From positions 1,116,241-1,180,240 of the forward strand of contig NZ_CP110854.1 of the NCBI RefSeq assembly GCF_027594745.1: DNA of 64,000 bases, in the 5' to 3' direction. Of this stretch, positions 6,186 through 59,835 are shown piece after piece. The notes under the pieces were generated by a model. It had not been told where the DNA came from and made no database searches. It saw only the letters and a program-made list of their open reading frames with translations. A program made the translations under genes and the position numbers. Positions within the stretch are counted from its first letter, which is position 1. Every line of letters begins with the position of its first letter. The DNA comes from Saprospira grandis (GTDB lineage Bacteria; Bacteroidota; Bacteroidia; Chitinophagales; Saprospiraceae).

Positions 6186-6345
6186 CTTTTTTGGGGCTGC
6201 CCCGCCCTGCGGGCGGGTCGGGCTCTGTCGCAGCTCGCAGGGCTGCTCGGCCCTGCAGGCTTTTTCGCTTTGCTTCAAAAGCCTTGGGTCTGCCGCCTTG
6301 CGGCGGCCCTGCTTTCCATCCCTCAGCCGGGGCAGTTTTCTTCGC
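6186..6345. repeat. GC-rich interspersed repeat family, copy 3
   Basis: ttttttggggctgccccgccctgcgggcgggtcgggctctgtcgcagctcgcagggctgctcggccctgcagg...ctttccatccctcagccgg. Confidence 0.85.
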
Positions 6346-11197: not shown

Positions 11198-12706
11198 TCA
11201 AAAATCAAAGGCCCGAGCAAAACAAGCCTCGGCCCAGTTTATTTCTTCCTGCTCAAAATGACGAAATTCTTTTTTTAAGGCTCTTTTTGATAAACGCCCC
11301 TGATTCTGTTTTAAAAATTGATGCAATAAACTTATTTCAGCATCTGAGAGCTCCATTTTTTCTAGCAGCCCTCTTTTAAAGCAATCATAAGCTGCCAAGT
11401 AAGCCAATTCTTTGGGAAGCAGTTCGGCCTTAATTTGCGCCAAACAACTACAAAAAAACTGAGCTTGCCGACTAACATCAAAGTAGCGATAGTAGTCTGC
11501 CGTCTCATTGCTAATCAAGACATTATGATCTGCCGATTCCCGCCATTCTATAAAAGATAAAACTGCAGCAGAATAGCTGCTGAGCGCCTGATGATATCCT
11601 TTTAAATCATTAAGTATAGCTGCTGATATAGGCCAAACAGAAGTCTGTACGCCCCTAGCCCCCAATATATGATGAAAAAGATAACGATGTAAACGCCCAT
11701 TTCCATCAACAAAAGGATGAATGAAGACAAAGGCAAAAGCCATTTCTGCAGCCAATAAAACCAAGGGAAACTCTTTCTCCTCTAAATATTCATAACTAGC
11801 CAAATAACAAGCTAATAGATCCTCTAGATCCGAAGCTTTTGCAGAAATATGCTCTGGCATCGGCTGCCCTGTTGCCCAATCATGCTCTCCTATAAATCCC
11901 TCTTGCTGACGTATACCTAATGCCCGCTTTTGCTTGCCCCCCAAAACAACAGTTTGCAACTCTTCTAATAAAGAAATCGACAAGGGCTGCTGCCCCGCTT
12001 GCCCCAACAAACGAGCCCAGGCCCAAGCCTGATTTGCCCTAGGCCGCTCTCCTTCTATAGAAAAGGAAGCCCTAGAATCTTTTAAGACTAAATAGGCGCT
12101 CGCTCGCTCCAAATCTGCGGAATTAAAATTATTCGTCCAGCTAGAAAAACCCTCTGCTATACAGTCATCTAGTTCTTGGCTCCGAAATATTAAAGGGCAA
12201 AAGCCTGGCAATCCTGGCAAATTATTCAAAATCCTATGCCGTGCAGAACGCTCTGGCCGAACCCCATACTGCAAATGCTCATCCAACAATAAGCAATAGT
12301 TTCCCCGCTTCAAATCATCTAAAGGCAAATGCTGGCCCATTAACCATTCATACAAAAACCAAATCTTTCGACTGTATTTCCCCCCTGGCGCCAAAGCCAA
12401 AAATGCTAATAGCTCTTTTTCTGCTATAGTCTCAAACAGCTTTTTGAAAAAAAGCAAGTTGATGCCTTCATATTTTAAAGCAAATACCAATTGCGACCAT
12501 AAATCATCCTCTGGCTGATAACGAACAGAAAAAACTCGCCAAGCTTCCGTTTCATATTGTCGATGCTTCAAACTAATTAAAGCCAATTTCTCAGGATAAG
12601 GAACTGCTAATCCTAAAGCATTGATAATAGCCCCATAACCCACTAAATAGCCCTCTTCAGCAGCAGCACGCCCCCGAAAAACAGTTATCCTTGATGAATA
12701 TTGCAT
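11198..12706 (-). CDS. Fic-family protein (AMPylase-type, class II with N-terminal inhibitory motif)
   Basis: 502 aa; canonical Fic motif HPFVDGNGRLHR; upstream SFSIEGE matching the (S/T)xxxE(G/N) inhibitory-helix motif. Confidence 0.85.
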   Translation of the reverse strand: MQYSSRITVFRGRAAAEEGYLVGYGAIINALGLAVPYPEKLALISLKHRQYETEAWRVFSVRYQPEDDLWSQLVFALKYEGINLLFFKKLFETIAEKELLAFLALAPGGKYSRKIWFLYEWLMGQHLPLDDLKRGNYCLLLDEHLQYGVRPERSARHRILNNLPGLPGFCPLIFRSQELDDCIAEGFSSWTNNFNSADLERASAYLVLKDSRASFSIEGERPRANQAWAWARLLGQAGQQPLSISLLEELQTVVLGGKQKRALGIRQQEGFIGEHDWATGQPMPEHISAKASDLEDLLACYLASYEYLEEKEFPLVLLAAEMAFAFVFIHPFVDGNGRLHRYLFHHILGARGVQTSVWPISAAILNDLKGYHQALSSYSAAVLSFIEWRESADHNVLISNETADYYRYFDVSRQAQFFCSCLAQIKAELLPKELAYLAAYDCFKRGLLEKMELSDAEISLLHQFLKQNQGRLSKRALKKEFRHFEQEEINWAEACFARAFDF

Positions 12707-12777
12707 ACAAAACAGCTTATTTTATGAAAAGTGCATACAATTTAAGGCTTAAGTTGTAAAAATACTATCATTAGTTT

Positions 12778-13095
12778 CTTTTTTTGGGGCTGCCCCGCCC
12801 TGCGGGCGGGTCGGGCTGTGTCGTGGCTCGCAGGTCTGCTCGGCCCTGCGGCGCAAAGCGCCTTGGTCTGCGGCTGCGCCGCCCCACTTTCCATCCCTCA
12901 GCCGATGCAGGCCAAGGCCTGCATAAAAGCGGCAGGCTATCGCCTATTTTAATATAAAGCGGGCCACAGCCCGCTTTGAATTGGACCAATTTGGCCCAGG
13001 CCGCCCGAGGGATTCCCCTAAGGAATCCCGCAGAGGGCTGAGTGGGCGGGTCATCAGTACGGATGAGGAGCGAAGCGAGGAATAGCGCTTTGGGC
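12778..13095. repeat. GC-rich interspersed repeat family, copy 5, plus S hairpin module
   Basis: tttttggggctgccccgccctgcgggcgggtcgggctgtgtcgtggctcgcaggtctgctcggccctgcgg... followed by gggattcccctaaggaatcccgcagagggctgagtgggcgggtc...gaggagcgaagcgagg. Confidence 0.85.
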
Positions 13096-13534: not shown

Positions 13535-13700
13535 CCAAGGAGGAGGCGAAGCCGCCGAAAAGGCGCGCAGCGCCTCGGCTGAGGGGCTGTAGCAGGGCCG
13601 CCAAAGGCGGCAGACCAAAGCGCTGAAAGCGCTGCAGGGCCGAGCGAACAGCGAGCTGCGCAATGGCCCGACCCGAGCGAAGCGAGGGGCAGCCCCAAAT
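13535..13700. repeat. GC-rich interspersed repeat family, copy 6
   Basis: gaggcgaagccgccg...cagggccgagcgaacagcgagctgcgcaatggcccgacccgagcgaagcgaggggcagccccaaa (reverse-oriented). Confidence 0.85.
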
Positions 13701-21120: not shown

Positions 21121-21612
21121 TTTGGGGCCCGCGGCCCAGGCAGGCCTAGGGCCTGCCTGGGCCGCCGCTATGCTGCGCGGCTCGCTGTTCGCTCGGCCCA
21201 TCGCTTTTTCGCTTTGCTCAAAAGCTCGGTCTGGCCTGCGGCCACCGCTGCGCAGCGCTGGGCCGCTCGGCCTTTTAGCTTGGCCAGTTCTTTCTGCTGC
21301 GGCCCCCTTGGCCCCTCCTTTTAAATGGTATTCGTCGCTGCGCTCCTCATCCGTCTATATGTCCCCGCCCACCCACCCCTCTACGGGATTCCCTAAGGAA
21401 TCCCTCGGGATGGCTGGACCAATTCCTGCACCTCCTCCCCCACTAAATAGGCGGCTTCGCCGCCTCTGGCCCAAAGGGACAGAACGGCCTAGTGATGCGG
21501 CGGGGTGGCCCGAAGGGCCAGACCCAGGCGGCGCAGCCGCCGCAGGGCCGAGCAGACCTGCGAGCCCCAAAGCGTAACGGCGCAAGGCGAAGCCGCAGCG
21601 CAGGCCCCAACT
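21121..21612. repeat. GC-rich interspersed repeat family, composite copy 7 (forward module + S hairpin module + reverse module)
   Basis: ~490 bp between convergent genes; contains ...gctcgctgttcgctcggcc..., gggattccctaaggaatccctcggg, and ...cagggccgagcagacctgcgagcc... modules in opposite orientations. Confidence 0.85.
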
Positions 21613-25424: not shown

Positions 25425-25745
25425 AAGGCGCCAGAGGCCTCTGGATTGTTACATTTGGCTCTGGGGATTCCCCAGAGGCGTCTGGATCGTTACATTTAGC
25501 TCCGGGGATTCCCCAGAGGCATCTGGATCGTTACATTTAGCTCCGGGGATTCCCCAGAGGCATCTGGATCGTTACATTTAGCTCCGGGGATTCCCCAGAG
25601 GCGTCTGGATCGTTACATTTAGCTCCGGGGATTCCCCAGAGGCATCTGGATCGTTACATTTAGCTCCGGGGATTCCCCAGAGGCGTCTGGATCGTTACAT
25701 TTAGCTCTGGCGTGGCGCTGAAGCCATCTGGATCGCTACATCATC
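25425..25745. repeat. Tandem repeat, 41-bp unit x ~7.5
   Basis: Unit tctggatcgttacatttagctccggggattccccagaggc(a/g). Phase checked at 25481, 25522, 25563, 25604, 25645, 25686, 25727. No unique spacers. Confidence 0.9.
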
Positions 25746-30040: not shown

Positions 30041-30185
30041 TAGAGGCGGGCCCAGCCCGCCGGCCTAGCGATGGTAGGCAGTGCGGCGCAGCCGCAGACC
30101 CAGGCGCTGAAAGCGCCGCAGGGCCGAGCGAATAGCGAGCTGCCGAACGTAGCGCCGACGAGCGAAGCGAGGCGGAGGCCCCAAA
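30041..30185. repeat. GC-rich interspersed repeat family, copy 9
   Basis: ggcgggcccagcccgccggcctagcgatggtaggcagtgcggcgcagccgcagacccaggcgctgaaagcgccgcagggccgagcgaatagcgagctgccgaacgtagcgccgacgagcgaagcgaggcggaggccccaaa. Confidence 0.85.
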
Positions 30186-39970: not shown

Positions 39971-40387
39971 TTAACCTAATTGGGTCGCTGTAACAGTAGT
40001 TTCAAATTTTTGGTAGAATCTAATTTTCTGAGCTATTCTTTGAGGAGAATTAACCAATTGGCTAACCTGATCTTCAAGATGACGGACAACAATGCTATCT
40101 AAAAGATCAAATAATTCCACCTTCACGCTTATCATTTCTTGATTTAAGAAGGAAATATATTCTGCAAGTAAATTTTGAAAAAAACCTTCCCAAGCAGCAT
40201 AGAGCATAGCTATAGATTGCTGAGAAAGTATATTTTGCTGAACTTCTTTGAACGCTCCCCTAGTAGGCTTAATAAATGAAATATCTTCAATTTCTCTAAA
40301 TAGCTTCAAATAACTATCTAGTAAGATTTCAGTCGTTTGCTTAAAATCGTCTATTGTCATTTGTTTATTATTTCTAAATGCTATCAC
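39971..40387 (-). CDS. Hypothetical alpha-helical protein (island ORF B)
   Basis: 138 aa. First codon is GTG overlapping the DUF262 stop (GTGA junction); first ATG is 27 nt downstream. It is in a different frame from ORF C, with a 26-nt gap between them. Confidence 0.4.
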   Translation of the reverse strand: MIAFRNNKQMTIDDFKQTTEILLDSYLKLFREIEDISFIKPTRGAFKEVQQNILSQQSIAMLYAAWEGFFQNLLAEYISFLNQEMISVKVELFDLLDSIVVRHLEDQVSQLVNSPQRIAQKIRFYQKFETTVTATQLG

Positions 40388-49641: not shown

Positions 49642-51336
49642 ATGCGCTTGCTCTCTTTTTTTGCCCTTTTCTTGCTCCTCGCCTGCCAAAATGAATCCCA
49701 AAAAGCGGAGCTGCTCATCTTTAATGGCCCTATTTATACCCTAGATAGTAGCCAAGCTCAGGTCGAAGCCCTGGCCGTAGCCAATGGGAAAATTATCGCT
49801 CTCGGAAATTGGAGCGATATCCAAAAGTATCAAAGCCCTAGTACCGAACTGCTCGATCTTAAGGGCAAAACCCTGATTCCCGCCTTTGTTGAAAGCCATG
49901 CCCATATTCTGGGCCTAGGGCAGTTTAAACGAGAACTGGACCTCAGCCAAGTCAAAAGCTATGAGGAGCTGATCCAATTGGTCCAAGAACAAGCTGCCAA
50001 AACGCCAAAAGGCGAATGGATTCTTGGCCGCGCCTGGCATCAAAGTAAATGGGACTCTCTCCCCTTTTCTATCAAAGGCTACCAAACGCATGATGCCCTC
50101 AGCCAAGCCGTCCCCGATCATCCCGTTTTGCTGATGCACGCTAGCGCCCACGCCCTAATGGCCAACGAAAAAGCCATGCAGTTGGCGGGCCTAACTCCCG
50201 AAACCCAAATGAATGAAGAAGGCGAGATTATCCGCTTTCCCAATGGCCGCCCCACAGGCATTTTTACCGAAAATGCCATGTCGATAATTAAGCAGGCCCT
50301 GCCGCCCGCCGATGAAAATAGCCGCTACCAAGATCTACAAGCGGGTATCCAAGAGGCCCTTAGCTACGGTATTGGCAGCCTGCAAGATGCAGGCTCCGAT
50401 TCTGCCGCTATTGCGCTTTACCGAAAAGCCCTGGCCCAAAATGAACTCCCGCTCCGCCTTTGGGTAATGCTGGCCTATAATAATTATGCTGCCGAGGTCC
50501 AAGGCCAAGACGATCCTTTCCTAGAAAAATGGCTGAAAAAAGGCCCCGAAAAAGGCGATTTTCTCAGTATCGGAGGCATTAAGCTTTATGCCGATGGCGC
50601 CCTAGGCTCTAGAGGCGCTTGGATGCTCGAGGAGTATAGCGACCGAGCTGGCCATTTTGGCCACCCTACTCTCCCCCTGAAAACCATTGAGAAGATTGCC
50701 GAAAAAGCCCTGCTGGCCGACTTCCAACTCTGTACTCACGCCATCGGCGACCGCGCCAACCGAGAGCTGCTCAATATTTATGAACGGGTCCTAAAAGCCC
50801 AACCCCAAGCCGCCAAAGACCACCGCTTCCGAATTGAACATGCCCAACATATTGCCCCCCAAGATATTCCCCGCTTTGCCCAGCTAGATGTTATTGCCTC
50901 GGTCCAAGGGATCCACTTTTCTTCCGATCGCCCCTGGGCCCAAAGCCGCCTAGGCCGCCTGCGCATCGCTATGGGCGCCTACCGCTGGAAACAATTGCTG
51001 GACTCTGGCGCCAAACTGATTAACGGCACCGATGCCCCCGTCGAGTCGATCAATCCGATCGCCTGCTTTTATAGCCTAGTCAGCCGCCAAGCCAATGATG
51101 GCCAAGTCTATGAAGCCGACCAAAAGCTGAGCCGCCTGCAGGCCCTAAAGGCCTATACCCTAGATGCCGCCTATGGCGCTTTTCAAGAAAAGGAAAAAGG
51201 CAGCCTAGAGCTCGGAAAGTTTGCCGATTTTGCCATCCTTTCCCAAGATATTATGCAGGTCCCGCTCCAAGATATTCCCCAAACTAAGGTCCTGCAAACT
51301 ATTGTAGATGGTAAAACGGTCTATTTGAGGGAGTAG
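49642..51336 (+). CDS. Amidohydrolase-family metal-dependent hydrolase (Amidohydro_3-type, secreted/lipoprotein)
   Basis: 564 aa. Signal/lipobox LLLACQ. Metal-binding HAH motif near the N-terminus of the barrel (FVESHAHIL). Distal HA.GD and GTD.P motifs. Confidence 0.7.
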   Translation: MRLLSFFALFLLLACQNESQKAELLIFNGPIYTLDSSQAQVEALAVANGKIIALGNWSDIQKYQSPSTELLDLKGKTLIPAFVESHAHILGLGQFKRELDLSQVKSYEELIQLVQEQAAKTPKGEWILGRAWHQSKWDSLPFSIKGYQTHDALSQAVPDHPVLLMHASAHALMANEKAMQLAGLTPETQMNEEGEIIRFPNGRPTGIFTENAMSIIKQALPPADENSRYQDLQAGIQEALSYGIGSLQDAGSDSAAIALYRKALAQNELPLRLWVMLAYNNYAAEVQGQDDPFLEKWLKKGPEKGDFLSIGGIKLYADGALGSRGAWMLEEYSDRAGHFGHPTLPLKTIEKIAEKALLADFQLCTHAIGDRANRELLNIYERVLKAQPQAAKDHRFRIEHAQHIAPQDIPRFAQLDVIASVQGIHFSSDRPWAQSRLGRLRIAMGAYRWKQLLDSGAKLINGTDAPVESINPIACFYSLVSRQANDGQVYEADQKLSRLQALKAYTLDAAYGAFQEKEKGSLELGKFADFAILSQDIMQVPLQDIPQTKVLQTIVDGKTVYLRE

Positions 51337-51341
51337 GATTT

Positions 51342-51505
51342 GGGGCGTTACTCCTTTCAGTCGTCGAACTGCGGACTAAAGTCCTTGTTGTCGCTGCGGC
51401 TTCGCCTTGCGGCGCTACGTTCCGCAGCTCGCTATTCGCTCGGCCCTGCGGCCTGACGGCCTTGGTCTGCGGCTTCGCCGCACTGCTACACATCGCTAGG
51501 CCGCT
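51342..51505. repeat. GC-rich interspersed repeat family, copy 14
   Basis: tttggggcgttactcctttcagtcgtcgaactgcggactaaagtccttgttgtcgctgcggcttcgccttgcggcgctacgttccgcagctcgctattcgctcggccctgcgg...; near-duplicate of copy 1. Confidence 0.85.
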
Positions 51506-51585
51506 CATCTGCCTTTTTCTAGCTTAAGTTTCTTCTTTGGCGGCTGGGTTGTTTTGGCCCCATGGGCTAAAGCCCATTTGCGGCA

Positions 51586-52005
51586 AGCTATTCTGCAACT
51601 ACAAAATGGCATCTTACAGTTGCGCTAAGCTATTCTGCAATTGCAAAACGGCATATTACAGTTGCGCTAAGCTATTCTGCAACTGCAAAACGGCATCTTA
51701 CAGTTGCGCTAAGCTATTCTGCAACTGCAAAATGGCATATTACAGTTGCGGCAAGCTATTCTGCAACTACAAAACGGCATCTTACAGTTGCGGCAAGCTA
51801 TTCTGCAACTGCAAAATGGCATATTACAGTTGCGGCAAGCTATTCTGCAACTACAAAATGGCATATTACAGTTGCGCTAAGCTATTCTGCAACTGCAAAA
51901 CGGCATATTACAGTTGCGCTAAGCTATTCTGCAACTGCAAAACGGCATATTACAGTTGCGCTAAGCTATTCGCAATTTGTGAAATGGCATTTGTTTGGGC
52001 CTTAG
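51586..52005. repeat. Tandem repeat, 42-bp unit x ~10, each unit with an internal 7-bp inverted repeat
   Basis: Unit agctattctgcaact(a/g)caaaa(t/c)ggcat(c/a)ttacagttgcg(c/g)(t/c)a. Phase checked at 51586, 51628, 51670, 51712, 51754, 51796, 51838, 51880, 51922, 51964. Internal stem GCAACTG...CAGTTGC. Spanned by a 158-aa ORF (51537..52013) that is probably not a real gene. Confidence 0.9.
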
Positions 52006-52084
52006 CTGGCTAGGATTTGGCCAATCATCGCCTAGGGACAAGCCCCTAGGCAGCAAAAAGGGCAAACAAAAAAGCCCAGCCACT

Positions 52085-52175
52085 CCCCTAAGGGATTCCT
52101 TAGGGAATCCCGCAGAGGGGTGGGTGGGCGGGTTATATTGCGAATGAGGAGCGCAGCGACGAATACCGCTTTTGG
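52085..52175. repeat. S hairpin module of the repeat family (third occurrence)
   Basis: agggattccttagggaatcccgcagaggggtgggtgggcgggttatattgcgaatgaggagcgcagcgacgaataccgc; compare 12985-13095 and 21335-21430. Confidence 0.8.
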
Positions 52176-52195
52176 GCCTCCTCAAGAGCAGCGCA

Positions 52196-53377
52196 TTAGG
52201 CTAATTTTTGAACGGCAGTACTCGCATCTCCATAGTTTTGGCCGGGCGCAACGCTAAGTAGATTAACGCCAGGTTTTTTACCTGGGGCAAAGCTGCCTAG
52301 TTCCTCCTCAAAGCCGAGGGCTTCGGCACCGTTTAGGGTGGCCCATTGCAAGAGTGTCTCAAAAGGGACATAAGACTGGTAGCGGCGGATAGTCTTTATC
52401 TCTTCTAGAATAGAGAGGGACCAATTAGAGGTAAGGCTATCGGTGCCTAAACAAACCTTAGCGCCTTTTTTCAAAAATGCCTGATAATTGGGCAAGCGAT
52501 TTTCGATATAGAGATTGGCATTGGGGCAGCTGGCCCAATAAACCGATTTGCCCCAGCTTTTGGCAAAAGCAATATCCTGCTCAGAAGTAAGGGTATTATG
52601 CACAAAAAGCGTTCGTTGTTCGGGGTCCATTTGCGAGAGGGCATAATGAATGGCCGTGCGGCCATTAGGCTGGAATTGGTCCAGAGAAAAACCAAACTGC
52701 CCATAAAAATCGACAAAGCCGCCTGTTCCTGTCAGGAAAAGTTCTTGTTCTGGAGGCGTCTCTTGATTGTGAATACTTACCGTATGGGCTTCTCCTTGGT
52801 TGGCGGCATTGATGCGCTCGAACAATTGGGGAGAAACAGAATAAGGGGCATGAGGCACCATCACCTTTTTGCTGCCTTCTGCTAGGGGGAGTGCATCATA
52901 AACGGCCTTATATTTTTCAAATTCGGCCTCGGCATTGGCGGCTTGTAAAAAATCGAAGCATTCGACAAAGCTATAATAGCGCAGGCGGCCCTTGGCCTTT
53001 TGGGAAAAGGTATCGGGAACATTGGTAATATCGCCTACGGCCACAATACCATTCGCAATCATTTGGTCCTCGGCCCAAGCGATAGCCTCGGCAATTTCGG
53101 TTTCGGGCGCATTGCGTCTAGACACCACCTGCTTAATAAAGTCGATGAGGCCCGTGCCCGTTTCTACTTTACCCAGCATATGAGAGAGCTCCAAATGGCA
53201 ATGGGCATTAATAAAGCCTGGGACCAAAATCCCTTCATGGATCTCGATCTCTTCATCGGGATAATTGGCCCTTTGGCCTATTTCTAGGATGCGGCCCTCA
53301 TCATCAAGGACCAAAACGCCCTCTTTGATGGGGGCTTCGCTAATTGGGTAAATATAATCGGCGCTTATTTTTCTCAT
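52196..53377 (-). CDS. Amidohydrolase-family protein (chlorohydrolase/nucleoside-deaminase-like)
   Basis: The ORF-track start 53404 is TTG; first ATG at comp 53375-77 ([16 protein letters not shown]...). [14 protein letters not shown] metal-binding motif; distal HxH...D pattern of the amidohydrolase TIM barrel. Confidence 0.7.
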
Positions 53378-53443: not shown

Positions 53444-53590
53444 TGGACAGGCGGCGAAGCCGCCGCAGGCTGAGGGATGGACAGCAGTGGCCGTCAGGCC
53501 AGACCCAGCCGCCGCAGGCGGCGCAGGGCCGAGCGAAGAGCGAGCTGCGACACAGCCCGACCCGAGCGAAGCGAGGGGCAGCCCCAAAAT
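53444..53590. repeat. GC-rich interspersed repeat family, copy 16
   Basis: gacaggcggcgaagccgccgcaggctgagggatggacagcagtggccgtcaggccagacccagccgccgcaggcggcgcagggccgagcgaagagcgagctgcgacacagcccgacccgagcgaagcgaggggcagccccaaaa. Confidence 0.85.
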
Positions 53591-59614: not shown

Positions 59615-59679
59615 AAAATTAGTTCAAATTTGGTCTTTAAGATAAGAACTTCTCCTTAATAGGCCAAGTTTTTCCTCCT

Positions 59680-59835
59680 TTTGGGGCTGCCCCGCCCTGC
59701 GGGCGGGTCGGGCTGTGTCGTGGCTCGCAGGTCTGCTCGGCCCTGCGCAAAATTTCGCTAGGCTCATTTTGCTGGGTCTGCGGCTGCGCCGCCCCACTTT
59801 CCATCCCTCAGCCGAGGCGCTCCGCGCCTGCAAAA
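59680..59835. repeat. GC-rich interspersed repeat family, copy 18
   Basis: ttttggggctgccccgccctgcgggcgggtcgggctgtgtcgtggctcgcaggtctgctcggccctgcgc...ccccactttccatccctcagccgaggcgctccgcgcctgc; near-identical to copy 5. Confidence 0.85.

What the first reader, a model, noticed from the sequence alone, without database searches (positions are those of the whole stretch)
51586..52005. Ten tandem copies of a 42-bp hairpin-containing unit embedded between a main-family repeat and an S module; an ORF reads through it
The unit is agctattctgcaact(a/g)caaaa(t/c)ggcat(c/a)ttacagttgcg(c/g)(t/c)a. It repeats in exact 42-bp phase, and each unit contains the inverted repeat GCAACTG-N15-CAGTTGC. Only four positions vary, in a near-binary fashion.

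A 158-aa ORF (51537..52013) translates it as (KLFCNCKTAYYSCA)n. All four variable sites would be non-synonymous, which argues against purifying selection on a protein.

The array is sandwiched between repeat copy 14 and the S module. This suggests the repeat family can carry or seed satellite arrays.
Basis: seen in the sequence. Interest (0 to 1): 0.5.

Follow-up and report, generated by a model that had tools for sequence, protein, structure and literature searches.

The report
Strain-variable 42-bp minisatellite in Saprospira spacer
The 42-bp tandem array is real, but it is best read as a non-coding, strain-variable minisatellite that expanded from one module of a patchwork intergenic repeat in Saprospira grandis, much like the boxB arrays of pneumococcal BOX elements, and not as a gene or a new kind of system.

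Summary
The array is real: TRF finds 9.5 copies of a 42-bp unit at 51578-51975. That is nine canonical units plus a tenth, diverged unit of a related type.

The window is Saprospira grandis. The array lies in an 859-bp gap between two convergent amidohydrolase genes. On its right is a terminator-shaped hairpin, the "S module".

The through-reading ORF has no homologue among 5.8 billion proteins and no Pfam match. Two of the three forward frames of the unit lack stops anyway.

The same satellite, with the same 36-bp leader and next to the same GC-rich repeat family, sits at a different locus in strain DSM 2844 (4.2 copies). So it is not locus-specific.

Eight strains differ at the orthologous site:
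- one has no array;
- one has a single related unit;
- one has three related units;
- the window has 9+1;
- one has a non-repeated core;
- two have unrelated 21-bp arrays (x22 and about x10) between a shared leader and trailer.

The stem variants are not compensated. Four of the nine units have a broken inverted repeat.

Best reading: a dispensable, slippage- or recombination-driven minisatellite inside a modular mosaic repeat, analogous to BOX and to MIRU. This is a new member of a known kind and of modest interest.

The parts
51339..51507 (+). Copy of the GC-rich, multi-hairpin 'main-family' interspersed repeat. It lies directly after the stop codon of the 564-aa amidohydrolase gene (49642-51336).
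   Evidence: Families D6, D8, D12 and D13. About 19 copies occur in both orientations across the window. The same repeat precedes the array in L002.
51547..51582 (+). Leader module L1, GGTTGTTTTGGCCCCATGGGCTAAAGCCCATTTGCG. It contains the hairpin ATGGGC-TAAA-GCCCAT. Its last bases (TTGCGGCA) resemble the 3' end of a unit.
   Evidence: It is unique in the window. The same module, with 2 mismatches, precedes the 4.2-copy array at a different locus in S. grandis DSM 2844, L002:5234.
51586..51963 (+). Nine canonical 'A-type' 42-bp units, consensus AGCTATTCTGCAACTGCAAAACGGCATATTACAGTTGCGCTA. GC content is 42%.
   Evidence: Six columns vary. All four allele combinations occur at every pair of the four polymorphic sites. 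The inverted repeat is perfect in 5 of 9 units.
51964..52005 (+). Tenth unit, diverged and of 'B type' (agctattcgcaatttgtgaaatggcatttg...). It corresponds to the unit found once (L013) or three times (DSM 2844) at the orthologous site in other strains.
   Evidence: The A and B consensus units are significantly related (local score 28 against a null maximum of 21).
52016..52068 (+). Conserved junction modules X (TTTGGCCAATCATCGCCTAGGG, 52016-52037) and Y (GGCAGCAAAAAGGGCAAACA, 52049-52068). They follow the arrays in other strains too. The trailer module T (GGGACTGTTCAGGATTTT...), which precedes X in the other strains, is missing here.
   Evidence: Module map. T is absent from the window.
52063..52169 (-). 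S module. On the - strand there is a long GC-rich hairpin (52074-52129) followed by UUUUUUGUUUG (52063-52073). This is the shape of an intrinsic terminator for the 393-aa gene (52196-53377, - strand). The module is present in every strain at this site.
   Evidence: Fold of -49 kcal/mol, z -4.4. Conserved in L003, L004, L005, L008, L011, L013, L014 and L020. The consensus terminator scan missed it because its loop limit is 8 nt.
51537..52013 (+). 158-aa ORF with a TTG start, reading through the array. Judged not to be a gene.
   Evidence: the ORF exists. (no homologue, no family). (stop-free by construction). (no ORF in the L014 array).

Best explanation
The array is a non-coding minisatellite (VNTR). 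It is one short module of a composite, patchwork intergenic repeat of Saprospira. The order of modules is: main-family repeat, leader L1, A units, B units, trailer T, X, Y.

This module has been amplified head-to-tail in this strain, most likely by replication slippage and unequal recombination or gene conversion between units. The internal inverted repeats probably favour misalignment.

The array sits in the gap between two convergent genes, beyond the terminator-like S hairpin of the right-hand gene. It is dispensable, because other strains have zero, one or three units, or quite different arrays, at the same site. Its effect on the cell is therefore probably nil or slight.

Shown: the array, its strain variability, its second locus, the modular context, and the lack of protein homologues.
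Inferred: the slippage/recombination mechanism, low transcription, and neutrality.
For: 1. The tandem structure is far beyond chance.

2. The orthologous gap between the same two genes was read in eight strains or contigs:
- L020: no array (334 bp, main-family repeat plus S module only).
- L013: one B unit plus T.
- DSM 2844 (L005): three B units plus T.
- Window: nine A units plus one B unit.
- CCB-QB6 (L011): a non-repeated core between leader L2 and T.
- Lewin (L008): a 21-bp unit x21.7 between L2 and T, plus an IS insertion.
- L014: another 21-bp unit, about x10, between L2 and T.

3. The same L1-A(n)-B-T composite, with 4.2 A units, lies after a main-family copy at a different locus in DSM 2844. 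About 270 bp following T there is shared with L013. The composite is therefore dispersed.

4. All four allele combinations occur at every pair of the four polymorphic sites among only nine units. The C/A (column 28) and CT/GC (columns 40-41) variants are shared with the DSM 2844 array. This is the mosaic pattern expected from recombination or conversion among units.

5. There is no sign of constraint on the hairpin. Four of nine units here, and units in L002, carry uncompensated arm changes. Some are tolerable only as G-U on the + strand, others only on the - strand.

6. No sign of coding.

7. No Rfam family at gathering score, and no promoter or terminator consensus inside the array. The S module folds as a terminator-like hairpin followed by a U-run on the - strand, between the 393-aa gene and the array.

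8. Known analogue: in pneumococcal BOX elements, boxA and boxC flank a variable number of tandem boxB modules, and longer arrays vary more between strains (PMC3049150).
Against: - Unrelated arrays at this one site all have periods of 21 or 42 bp, that is two or four helical turns. The arms GCAACTG and CAGTTGC alternate every 20-22 bp. This could reflect a constraint, such as binding sites phased on one face of the helix, rather than chance.
- The whole array folds much better than shuffles as - strand RNA (z -9.0). Tandem inverted repeats do that by construction, however.
- The same reading frame is open in A units, in B units and in L002. Five of the seven variable columns, counting L002, fall on codon position 2. 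This is not significant after allowing for three frames.
- No transcription data are available.
- Only two loci with the A-type array were seen, so 'dispersed' rests on a small sample.
- The slippage mechanism is inferred, not observed.
Confidence: 0.7

Rival explanations
1. The array acts at the RNA level. It would be part of a read-through 3' UTR of one of the convergent genes, or a separate non-coding RNA. Its repeated stem-loops would block 3'-5' exonucleases or stop convergent transcription, as REP hairpins do in E. coli.
For: - The array lies between convergent 3' ends.
- On the - strand each unit folds into a 10-bp stem including a G-U pair (-13.5 kcal/mol, z -2.4).
- The whole array has z -9.0 on the - strand, against -3.6 on the + strand.
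- The recurrent G-to-A change at column 16 keeps pairing as G-U on the - strand.
Against: - A terminator-shaped hairpin with a U-run (the S module) lies between the - strand gene and the array.
- Other arm changes (column 14 here, column 13 in L002) break the - strand pairing, and no compensatory change is seen.
- The site is empty in L020 and holds unrelated sequences in other strains.
- There is no Rfam match at gathering score.
- No U-tract follows the unit hairpins.
Confidence: 0.1
2. The array is a set of phased binding sites for a sequence-specific, probably dimeric, DNA-binding protein. It would be comparable to iterons or to the F-plasmid centromere sopC, which has 12 direct repeats of 43 bp, each with a 16-bp inverted-repeat motif.
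For: - The 42-bp period equals four helical turns.
- The 7-bp arms alternate in orientation every 20-22 bp.
- The other arrays at this site have a 21-bp period and contain palindromes such as GAACTAGTTC.
- The sopC architecture is taken from PMC3177203.
Against: - No partition or replication genes are nearby. The flanking genes are two amidohydrolases, a mevalonate-diphosphate decarboxylase-like gene, a glucosaminidase-domain gene and an HSP70 gene.
- The arms are 15 and 13 bp apart, not adjacent as in sopC.
- 4 of 9 units have a broken palindrome with no symmetric compensation.
- The site is empty or filled with unrelated units in sister strains.
- No match was found in plasmid or phage collections.
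Confidence: 0.08
3. The ORF 51537-52013 is a real gene. It would encode a Cys-rich protein of 14-residue repeats, with variable residues under diversifying selection.
For: - The ORF exists.
- The same frame is open through the array in L002 (112 aa) and through B-type units (read from the sequences).
- The polymorphic sites fall mostly on codon position 2 and change the residue.
Against: - No homologue at E<=0.01 among 5.8 billion clustered proteins. The L002 ORF of the deposited DSM 2844 genome would have scored strongly if any pipeline had called it.
- No Pfam family.
- The start codon is TTG and, in L002, lies inside another repeat. The ends of the ORF are not conserved between the two loci.
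- 2 of 3 + frames are stop-free, so openness carries little information.
- GC is 42%, against 51-59% in the neighbouring genes.
- The locus is absent from sister strains.
Confidence: 0.03
4. The copy number, or the array itself, is an assembly artefact of a repeat-rich region.
For: Short-read contigs of the same strain end within a few tens of bases of both flanking genes, so they give no independent support for nine copies.
Against: - An independent assembly of another strain (DSM 2844) contains the same unit in tandem, 4.2 copies, with the same leader.
- Other strains carry 1 and 3 related units at the orthologous site.
- The units differ from one another in an orderly way, not as collapsed or duplicated reads would.
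Confidence: 0.03

Closest known systems
BOX elements of Streptococcus pneumoniae and S. suis (boxA - boxB(n) - boxC composite interspersed repeats; PMC3049150)
   Same: - It is a modular, non-coding intergenic element.
- An internal module of about 40-45 bp is present in zero to many tandem copies between conserved end modules.
- Copy number differs between strains and loci.
- The modules can form stem-loops.
- Variants with other end modules and other internal modules exist (boxD/E/F in S. suis). This parallels L1 versus L2 leaders, and A/B versus 21-bp units, here.
   Different: - No sequence relationship is expected or was seen, and the phylum is different (Bacteroidota).
- No terminal inverted repeats or target-site duplications were identified.
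- Only two loci with the A-type array are documented so far, against more than 100 BOX copies.
- At one and the same site, different strains carry unrelated internal arrays.
MIRU-VNTR loci of Mycobacterium tuberculosis (mycobacterial interspersed repetitive units; PMC3635867; details of unit size and small ORFs from my own knowledge)
   Same: - It is a family of minisatellite-like tandem repeats with units of tens of bp.
- It is scattered in intergenic regions.
- Copy number is polymorphic between strains.
- Units can be read through by short ORFs without being conventional genes.
   Different: - MIRUs lie mostly within operons, with ORFs overlapping the stop and start codons of flanking genes. 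This array lies between convergent genes.
- MIRU loci keep the same unit family across strains. This site also holds unrelated arrays.
BIMEs / REP clusters of enterobacteria (from my own knowledge: Gilson et al. 1991)
   Same: - It is a mosaic of short motifs in extragenic regions, often after the 3' ends of genes.
- Palindromic arms alternate in orientation and are separated by two kinds of linker (here 15 and 13 nt).
- The number of repeats is variable.
- It is associated with a GC-rich hairpin repeat family.
   Different: - In BIMEs each alternating unit is itself a palindrome of about 35 bp. Here the arms are 7 bp.
- No RAYT transposase was found among ten small ORFs of the window.
- Binding by IHF or gyrase is not testable here.
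sopC centromere of plasmid F (12 x 43 bp, each with a 16-bp inverted repeat bound by SopB; PMC3177203)
   Same: - The unit length is nearly identical (42 versus 43 bp) and so is the copy number (about 10 versus 12).
- There is one inverted repeat with 7-bp arms per unit.
   Different: - It is chromosomal, with no parAB/sopAB genes nearby.
- The arms are 15 bp apart instead of 2.
- The palindrome is degenerate in 4 of 9 units.
- The array is absent from sister strains.
- No plasmid match was found.

Membership tests
Bacterial minisatellite / VNTR | Head-to-tail copies of a 10-100 bp unit, well beyond chance | tested here: met
   TRF: 42-bp period, 9.5 copies, 93% matches. 9 core matches against 0 in shuffles.
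Bacterial minisatellite / VNTR | Copy number differs between strains or loci | tested here: met
   A/B-type units at the orthologous site number 0, 1, 3 and 9+1 in different strains. There are 4.2 copies at a second locus.
Bacterial minisatellite / VNTR | Observed instability within a lineage (mutation by gain or loss of units) | not testable with these tools
   This needs repeated sequencing or PCR of sub-cultures or close isolates.
BOX-like composite interspersed repeat | Conserved end modules flanking a variable number of tandem internal modules | tested here: met
   L1-A(n)-B(m)-T in L002. B(1 or 3)-T in L013 and L005. L2-array-T in L008 and L014. In the window T is missing.
BOX-like composite interspersed repeat | Many dispersed copies in the genome | tested here: inconclusive
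   Two distinct loci carry the A-type composite (the window locus and L002). No further copy was found in the 170 kb of Saprospira DNA held.
BOX-like composite interspersed repeat | Terminal inverted repeats / MITE-like mobility | tested here: inconclusive
   No inverted repeat between leader and trailer was seen by eye. Comparison of the empty site (L020) with filled sites gives no clear target-site duplication. This was not analysed formally.
sopC / ParB-type centromere array | Adjacent partition genes (parA/parB) and a replicon context | tested here: not met
   The flanking genes are two amidohydrolases, a mevalonate-diphosphate decarboxylase-like gene, a glucosaminidase-domain gene and an HSP70 gene, on a chromosome. 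No plasmid match was found.
sopC / ParB-type centromere array | Conserved palindromic binding motif in every unit | tested here: not met
   The inverted repeat is perfect in 5 of 9 units and there are no symmetric compensatory changes.
CRISPR array | Identical repeats separated by unique spacers, with cas genes or a leader | tested here: not met
   The whole 42-bp period is repeated, so there are no unique spacers. The neighbouring genes whose Pfam domains were seen are not cas genes; the rest of the window was not screened for cas genes.
Tandem-repeat protein gene | ORF conserved as a protein in relatives, or a match to a known family | tested here: not met
   No hit at E<=0.01 in 5.8 billion proteins. 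No Pfam family at E<=1. The site is empty in L020.
Described RNA family (Rfam 15) | Score at or above the family gathering threshold | tested here: not met
   Only tRNAs pass in the window. The best sub-threshold hits over the array are miRNA or sRNA models at 14-26 bits, against cut-offs of 50-140.

The most novel reading that the evidence does not exclude
The gap between the two amidohydrolase genes may hold a functional 'leader - array - trailer' cassette. Different Saprospira strains would maintain different arrays phased at 21 or 42 bp. The 42-bp array of the window would be one allele of it.

Such arrays could be strain-specific sets of protein-binding sites, or precursors of small processed RNAs. 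They might be generated by an active amplification mechanism rather than by passive slippage.
Probability: 0.08. Interest if true: 0.7.

Novelty: new member of a known kind. Interest (0 to 1): 0.3.

Why it matters
As it stands, the finding documents an undescribed modular repeat system in Saprospira, a predatory marine member of the Bacteroidota. An internal module of about 42 bp expands and contracts between strains.

This is useful in three practical ways:
- The locus and its relatives are ready-made VNTR markers for strain typing.
- It explains why short-read assemblies of this genus break at gene ends.
- It warns annotators that ORFs of 110-170 aa through such arrays are not evidence of a gene. 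One such ORF (169 aa) is among the called genes on the Lewin genome record in the protein collection.

The finding would matter more if the recurrent 21/42-bp phasing, and the replacement of one array by an unrelated one between conserved flanks, turned out to reflect function or an active array-generating process. It would then be a new kind of hypervariable locus.

Tried and rejected
- Protein search with the 158-aa ORF: no hit. Pfam: nothing. Coding was rejected.
- Rfam at gathering score and at E<=10: no credible family.
- Promoter and terminator consensus scan of 51200-52300: nothing. The S-module hairpin was missed because of the scan's loop limit and was found by folding.
- Plasmid and phage BLAST of leader plus array plus junction: no match. 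Viral-contig scans for the unit and for the trailer: 0. A mobile-plasmid, phage or centromere origin was rejected.
- Metagenome scan with a degenerate A/B pattern: one true locus (L013) and one chance hit inside a coding region of an unrelated organism (L012).
- Test of whether all arrays at the site derive from one core:
  - A versus B are significantly related.
  - The Lewin unit versus the CCB-QB6 single-copy core is significant (p about 0.007).
  - The L014 unit versus that core, and A/B versus either 21-bp unit, are not significant.
  - A common 'satellite library' origin is therefore only partly supported, and I do not claim it.
- Covariation in the unit hairpin: no compensatory change on either strand.
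- CRISPR-like reading (the unit contains GTTGC...GCAAC): rejected, because the 'spacers' are the same in all units.
- Search for a RAYT or Y1 transposase among ten small ORFs of the window: none.
- Literature search for described Saprospira repeats: nothing relevant.

Full report
**What is there.** Reading 51000-52700 and running Tandem Repeats Finder confirm a 42-bp periodic array at 51578-51975, with 9.5 copies, 93% matches and score 656. A 29-nt core of the unit occurs nine times in the window and in none of 100 shuffles.

Laid out in register, units 1-9 (51586-51963) are 88-100% identical to one another.

Six columns vary among the nine units: 14, 16, 22, 28, and the linked pair 40/41 (CT or GC). 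The inverted repeat GCAACTG-N15-CAGTTGC is perfect in five units and carries one mismatch in four. Because CAGTTGC of one unit also faces GCAACTG of the next unit 13 nt away, the array is a chain of 7-bp arms alternating in orientation every 20-22 bp.

**Where it is.** The 393-aa protein encoded at 52196-53377 (- strand) is identical to WBM75513.1 of Saprospira grandis, from a 4.25-Mb genome. It is 3-20 residues different from its orthologues in strains Lewin, DSM 2844 and CCB-QB6.

The array lies in an 859-bp gap between two convergent genes. These are a 564-aa Amidohydro_3 protein (49642-51336, +) and the 393-aa Amidohydro_1 protein (-).

From left to right the gap contains:
- a copy of the GC-rich, multi-hairpin 'main-family' repeat (about 51339-51507), one of about 19 copies in the window in both orientations;
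- a 36-bp leader with the hairpin ATGGGC-TAAA-GCCCAT (51547-51582);
- the nine A units and one B unit;
- two short conserved junction modules, X and Y;
- the S module (52074-52169).

On the - strand the S module folds into a long GC-rich hairpin immediately followed by UUUUUUGUUUG (-49 kcal/mol, z -4.4). This is the shape of an intrinsic terminator for the 393-aa gene. The array therefore probably lies beyond the end of that transcript. That step is an inference, as no expression data are available.

**Is it a gene?** The 158-aa ORF exists, but several results argue against a gene:
- It has no homologue at E<=0.01 among 5.8 billion clustered proteins. This holds even though the deposited DSM 2844 genome contains a 112-aa ORF through its own copy of the array, which would have matched had any pipeline called it.
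- Pfam finds nothing at E<=1.
- Two of the three forward frames of the consensus unit are free of stops, so an ORF through a 42-bp (3 x 14) repeat is expected.
- The start is a TTG. In L002 the ORF starts inside the main-family repeat. The ends differ between the two loci.
- The unrelated array at the same site in contig L014 has no ORF of 40 aa or more in any frame. The ORF through the Lewin array lies on the opposite strand.
- GC content of the units is 42%, against 51-59% for the neighbouring genes.

One oddity remains. The frame is also open in B-type units, and five of the seven variable columns (counting L002) fall on codon position 2. With three frames to choose from this is not significant, but it is why I leave 3% on the coding reading.

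**Is it a structured RNA or a binding-site array?**
- A single unit as + strand RNA folds no better than shuffles (z -0.45). On the - strand the stem extends to 10 bp through a G-U pair (-13.5 kcal/mol, z -2.4).
- The whole array gives z -3.6 on the + strand and -9.0 on the - strand. Any chain of inverted repeats does this.
- The arm variants give no covariation. G16A (three units) is tolerated only as G-U on the - strand. C14T (one unit) and A13G (two units in L002) are tolerated only as G-U on the + strand. None is compensated.
- No Rfam family reaches its threshold.
- No promoter or terminator consensus lies in the array.
- No plasmid, phage or viral-contig match exists.

**Comparison with other strains: the decisive evidence.**

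A scan of one genome per species with the 29-nt core found one locus, in S. grandis DSM 2844. That array has 4.2 A units and then a B unit. It is preceded by the same leader (2 mismatches) and by a main-family copy, and followed by a trailer (T: GGGACTGTTCA..ATTTTGTGTATCC). It lies after a different gene, encoding a 218-aa protein not further identified here. The satellite is therefore not locus-specific.

I then fetched the orthologous gap between the two amidohydrolase genes from seven other strains or contigs. The result is a series:

| Strain or contig | Content of the gap |
|---|---|
| L020 | Nothing between main-family repeat and S module (334 bp) |
| L013 | One B unit + T |
| DSM 2844 | Three B units + T |
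| Window | Nine A + one B, no T |
| CCB-QB6 | About 70-bp non-repeated core between a second leader (L2: CCCCAATTGTTAGGGAGTTGTTAAAAA...AATAATGTAACAAAAT.AAAAAGGG) and T |
| Lewin | L2 + 21.7 copies of a 21-bp unit (CCAGACCGAACTAGTTCACCT) + T, plus an IS with an rve transposase |
| L014 | L2 + about 10 copies of another 21-bp unit (TAGGTCGGGCTGCTAGCCGAG) + T |

The seventh sequence fetched, contig L003, ends within the gap, 219 bp beyond the 393-aa gene, so it shows the S module but not the array region.

A and B consensus units are significantly related. The Lewin unit resembles the CCB-QB6 core (p about 0.007). The other pairs show no detectable similarity.

About 270 bp downstream of T is shared between L013 (orthologous site) and L002 (the other locus). 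Whole composites are therefore duplicated or exchanged between loci.

**Variation within the array.** All four allele combinations occur at each of the six pairs of the four polymorphic sites among only nine units. The C/A (column 28) and CT/GC (columns 40-41) variants also segregate in the DSM 2844 array.

This mosaic is what unequal crossing-over and gene conversion among units produce in minisatellites. It does not require any special mechanism. The T/C site at column 22 is a CpG/TpG pair.

**Interpretation.** The best-supported account (about 0.7) is as follows. The array is a dispensable, non-coding minisatellite. One module (A/B) of a modular, dispersed intergenic mosaic element has been amplified in this strain by slippage or unequal recombination, in a gap between convergent genes where extra DNA is tolerated.

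The closest known system in the way it works is the pneumococcal BOX element. There, boxA and boxC flank a variable number of tandem boxB modules, and long arrays vary most between strains (PMC3049150). S. suis has alternative end and internal modules, as seen here with L1 or L2 and with A/B or 21-bp units.

MIRU-VNTR loci (PMC3635867) and enterobacterial BIMEs (own knowledge) are similar in kind. The F-plasmid centromere sopC (12 x 43 bp with an inverted repeat; PMC3177203) looks alike on paper. It fails on context, on arm spacing and on conservation of the palindrome.

**What remains odd.** Four arrays at one site, some unrelated in sequence, all have periods of 21 or 42 bp and sit between conserved flanks. 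I cannot exclude that this phasing reflects function or an active array-forming process, and I give that reading about 8%.

Limits of this analysis:
- Only one exact-pattern scan of reference genomes was possible, so the genome-wide copy number of the composite is unknown.
- The nine-copy count rests on one assembly. Short-read contigs break at both genes.
- There are no expression data.

**Verdict.** The 'seeded by the main-family repeat' idea is only partly right, and locus-specificity is refuted. This is a new member of a known kind and of modest interest (0.3).

Noticed in passing
window 25431-25707 (with L021, L022, L023): A second tandem array: 41-bp unit x6.8, in the divergent gap between a RelA/SpoT-like gene (-) and a 327-aa hypothetical gene (+). 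Unlike the 42-bp array, it is kept at the same position in DSM 2844 (x7.5), Lewin (x7.2) and Saprospira sp. CCB-QB6 (x2.7, where the orthologue is only 74% identical). Units are homogenised within each strain and differ between strains. TTACATTT and a GGGGATTCCCC palindrome spanning the unit junction are invariant. One arm pair flips from C-G to G-C between the window and Lewin. It looks constrained, perhaps regulatory.
   Followed up: partly
window 52063-52169 (-); further copies near 13004-13090 (+) and 21325-21410 (-): On the - strand the 'S module' is a long GC-rich hairpin followed by a U-run, like an intrinsic terminator of the 393-aa gene. It is conserved in all eight strains at this site, yet it is itself a dispersed repeat.
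   Followed up: partly
window, about 19 sites (e.g. 2081-2333, 6189-6333, 12782-12908, 13535-13699, 30061-30185, 53445-53588, 59679-59818): The 'main-family' repeat is GC-rich, about 150-200 bp, built of several short hairpins, and occurs in both orientations. It is almost always placed right after gene ends. It is REP/BIME-like in placement. No RAYT-type transposase was found among ten small ORFs of the window.
   Followed up: partly
L023 2607-3026 (Saprospira sp. CCB-QB6): A 139-aa Y1_Tnp (PF01797, IS200/IS605- or RAYT-type) gene lies next to the orthologue of the 327-aa gene. It is a candidate mobiliser for the hairpin repeat families.
   Followed up: no
L008 5898-7397 (S. grandis Lewin, orthologous gap): An insertion sequence with an rve-family transposase has landed in the same intergenic gap, next to the 21-bp array. 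The 21-bp array itself is covered by a called 169-aa gene on the Lewin genome record.
   Followed up: no
L011 5183-6111; L014 4683-5758; L002 5600-5760: There are many small hairpin modules of the form N6-7 + (C)TAAAG, TTGAAA or TTCAG + N'6-7, for example ccatggactaaagtccatgg and cctgtaggttgaaacctacagg. They are strung together in these gaps and are a further component of the mosaic.
   Followed up: no
L023 500-1150 (CCB-QB6, upstream of its 41-bp array): Large tandem duplications with periods of 210 and 250 bp, about 2 copies, 93% identical. They are built from the same small hairpin modules.
   Followed up: no
window 12678-12740: A 30-bp unit x2.1 (82% match) straddles the start-codon end of the 502-aa ORF on the - strand (11198-12706) and lies just before a main-family copy.
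   Followed up: no
window 39971-40387 (-): A 138-aa ORF matches HEPN domains (RiboL-PSP-HEPN, E 5e-8). It may be part of a toxin-antitoxin or defence pair.
   Followed up: no
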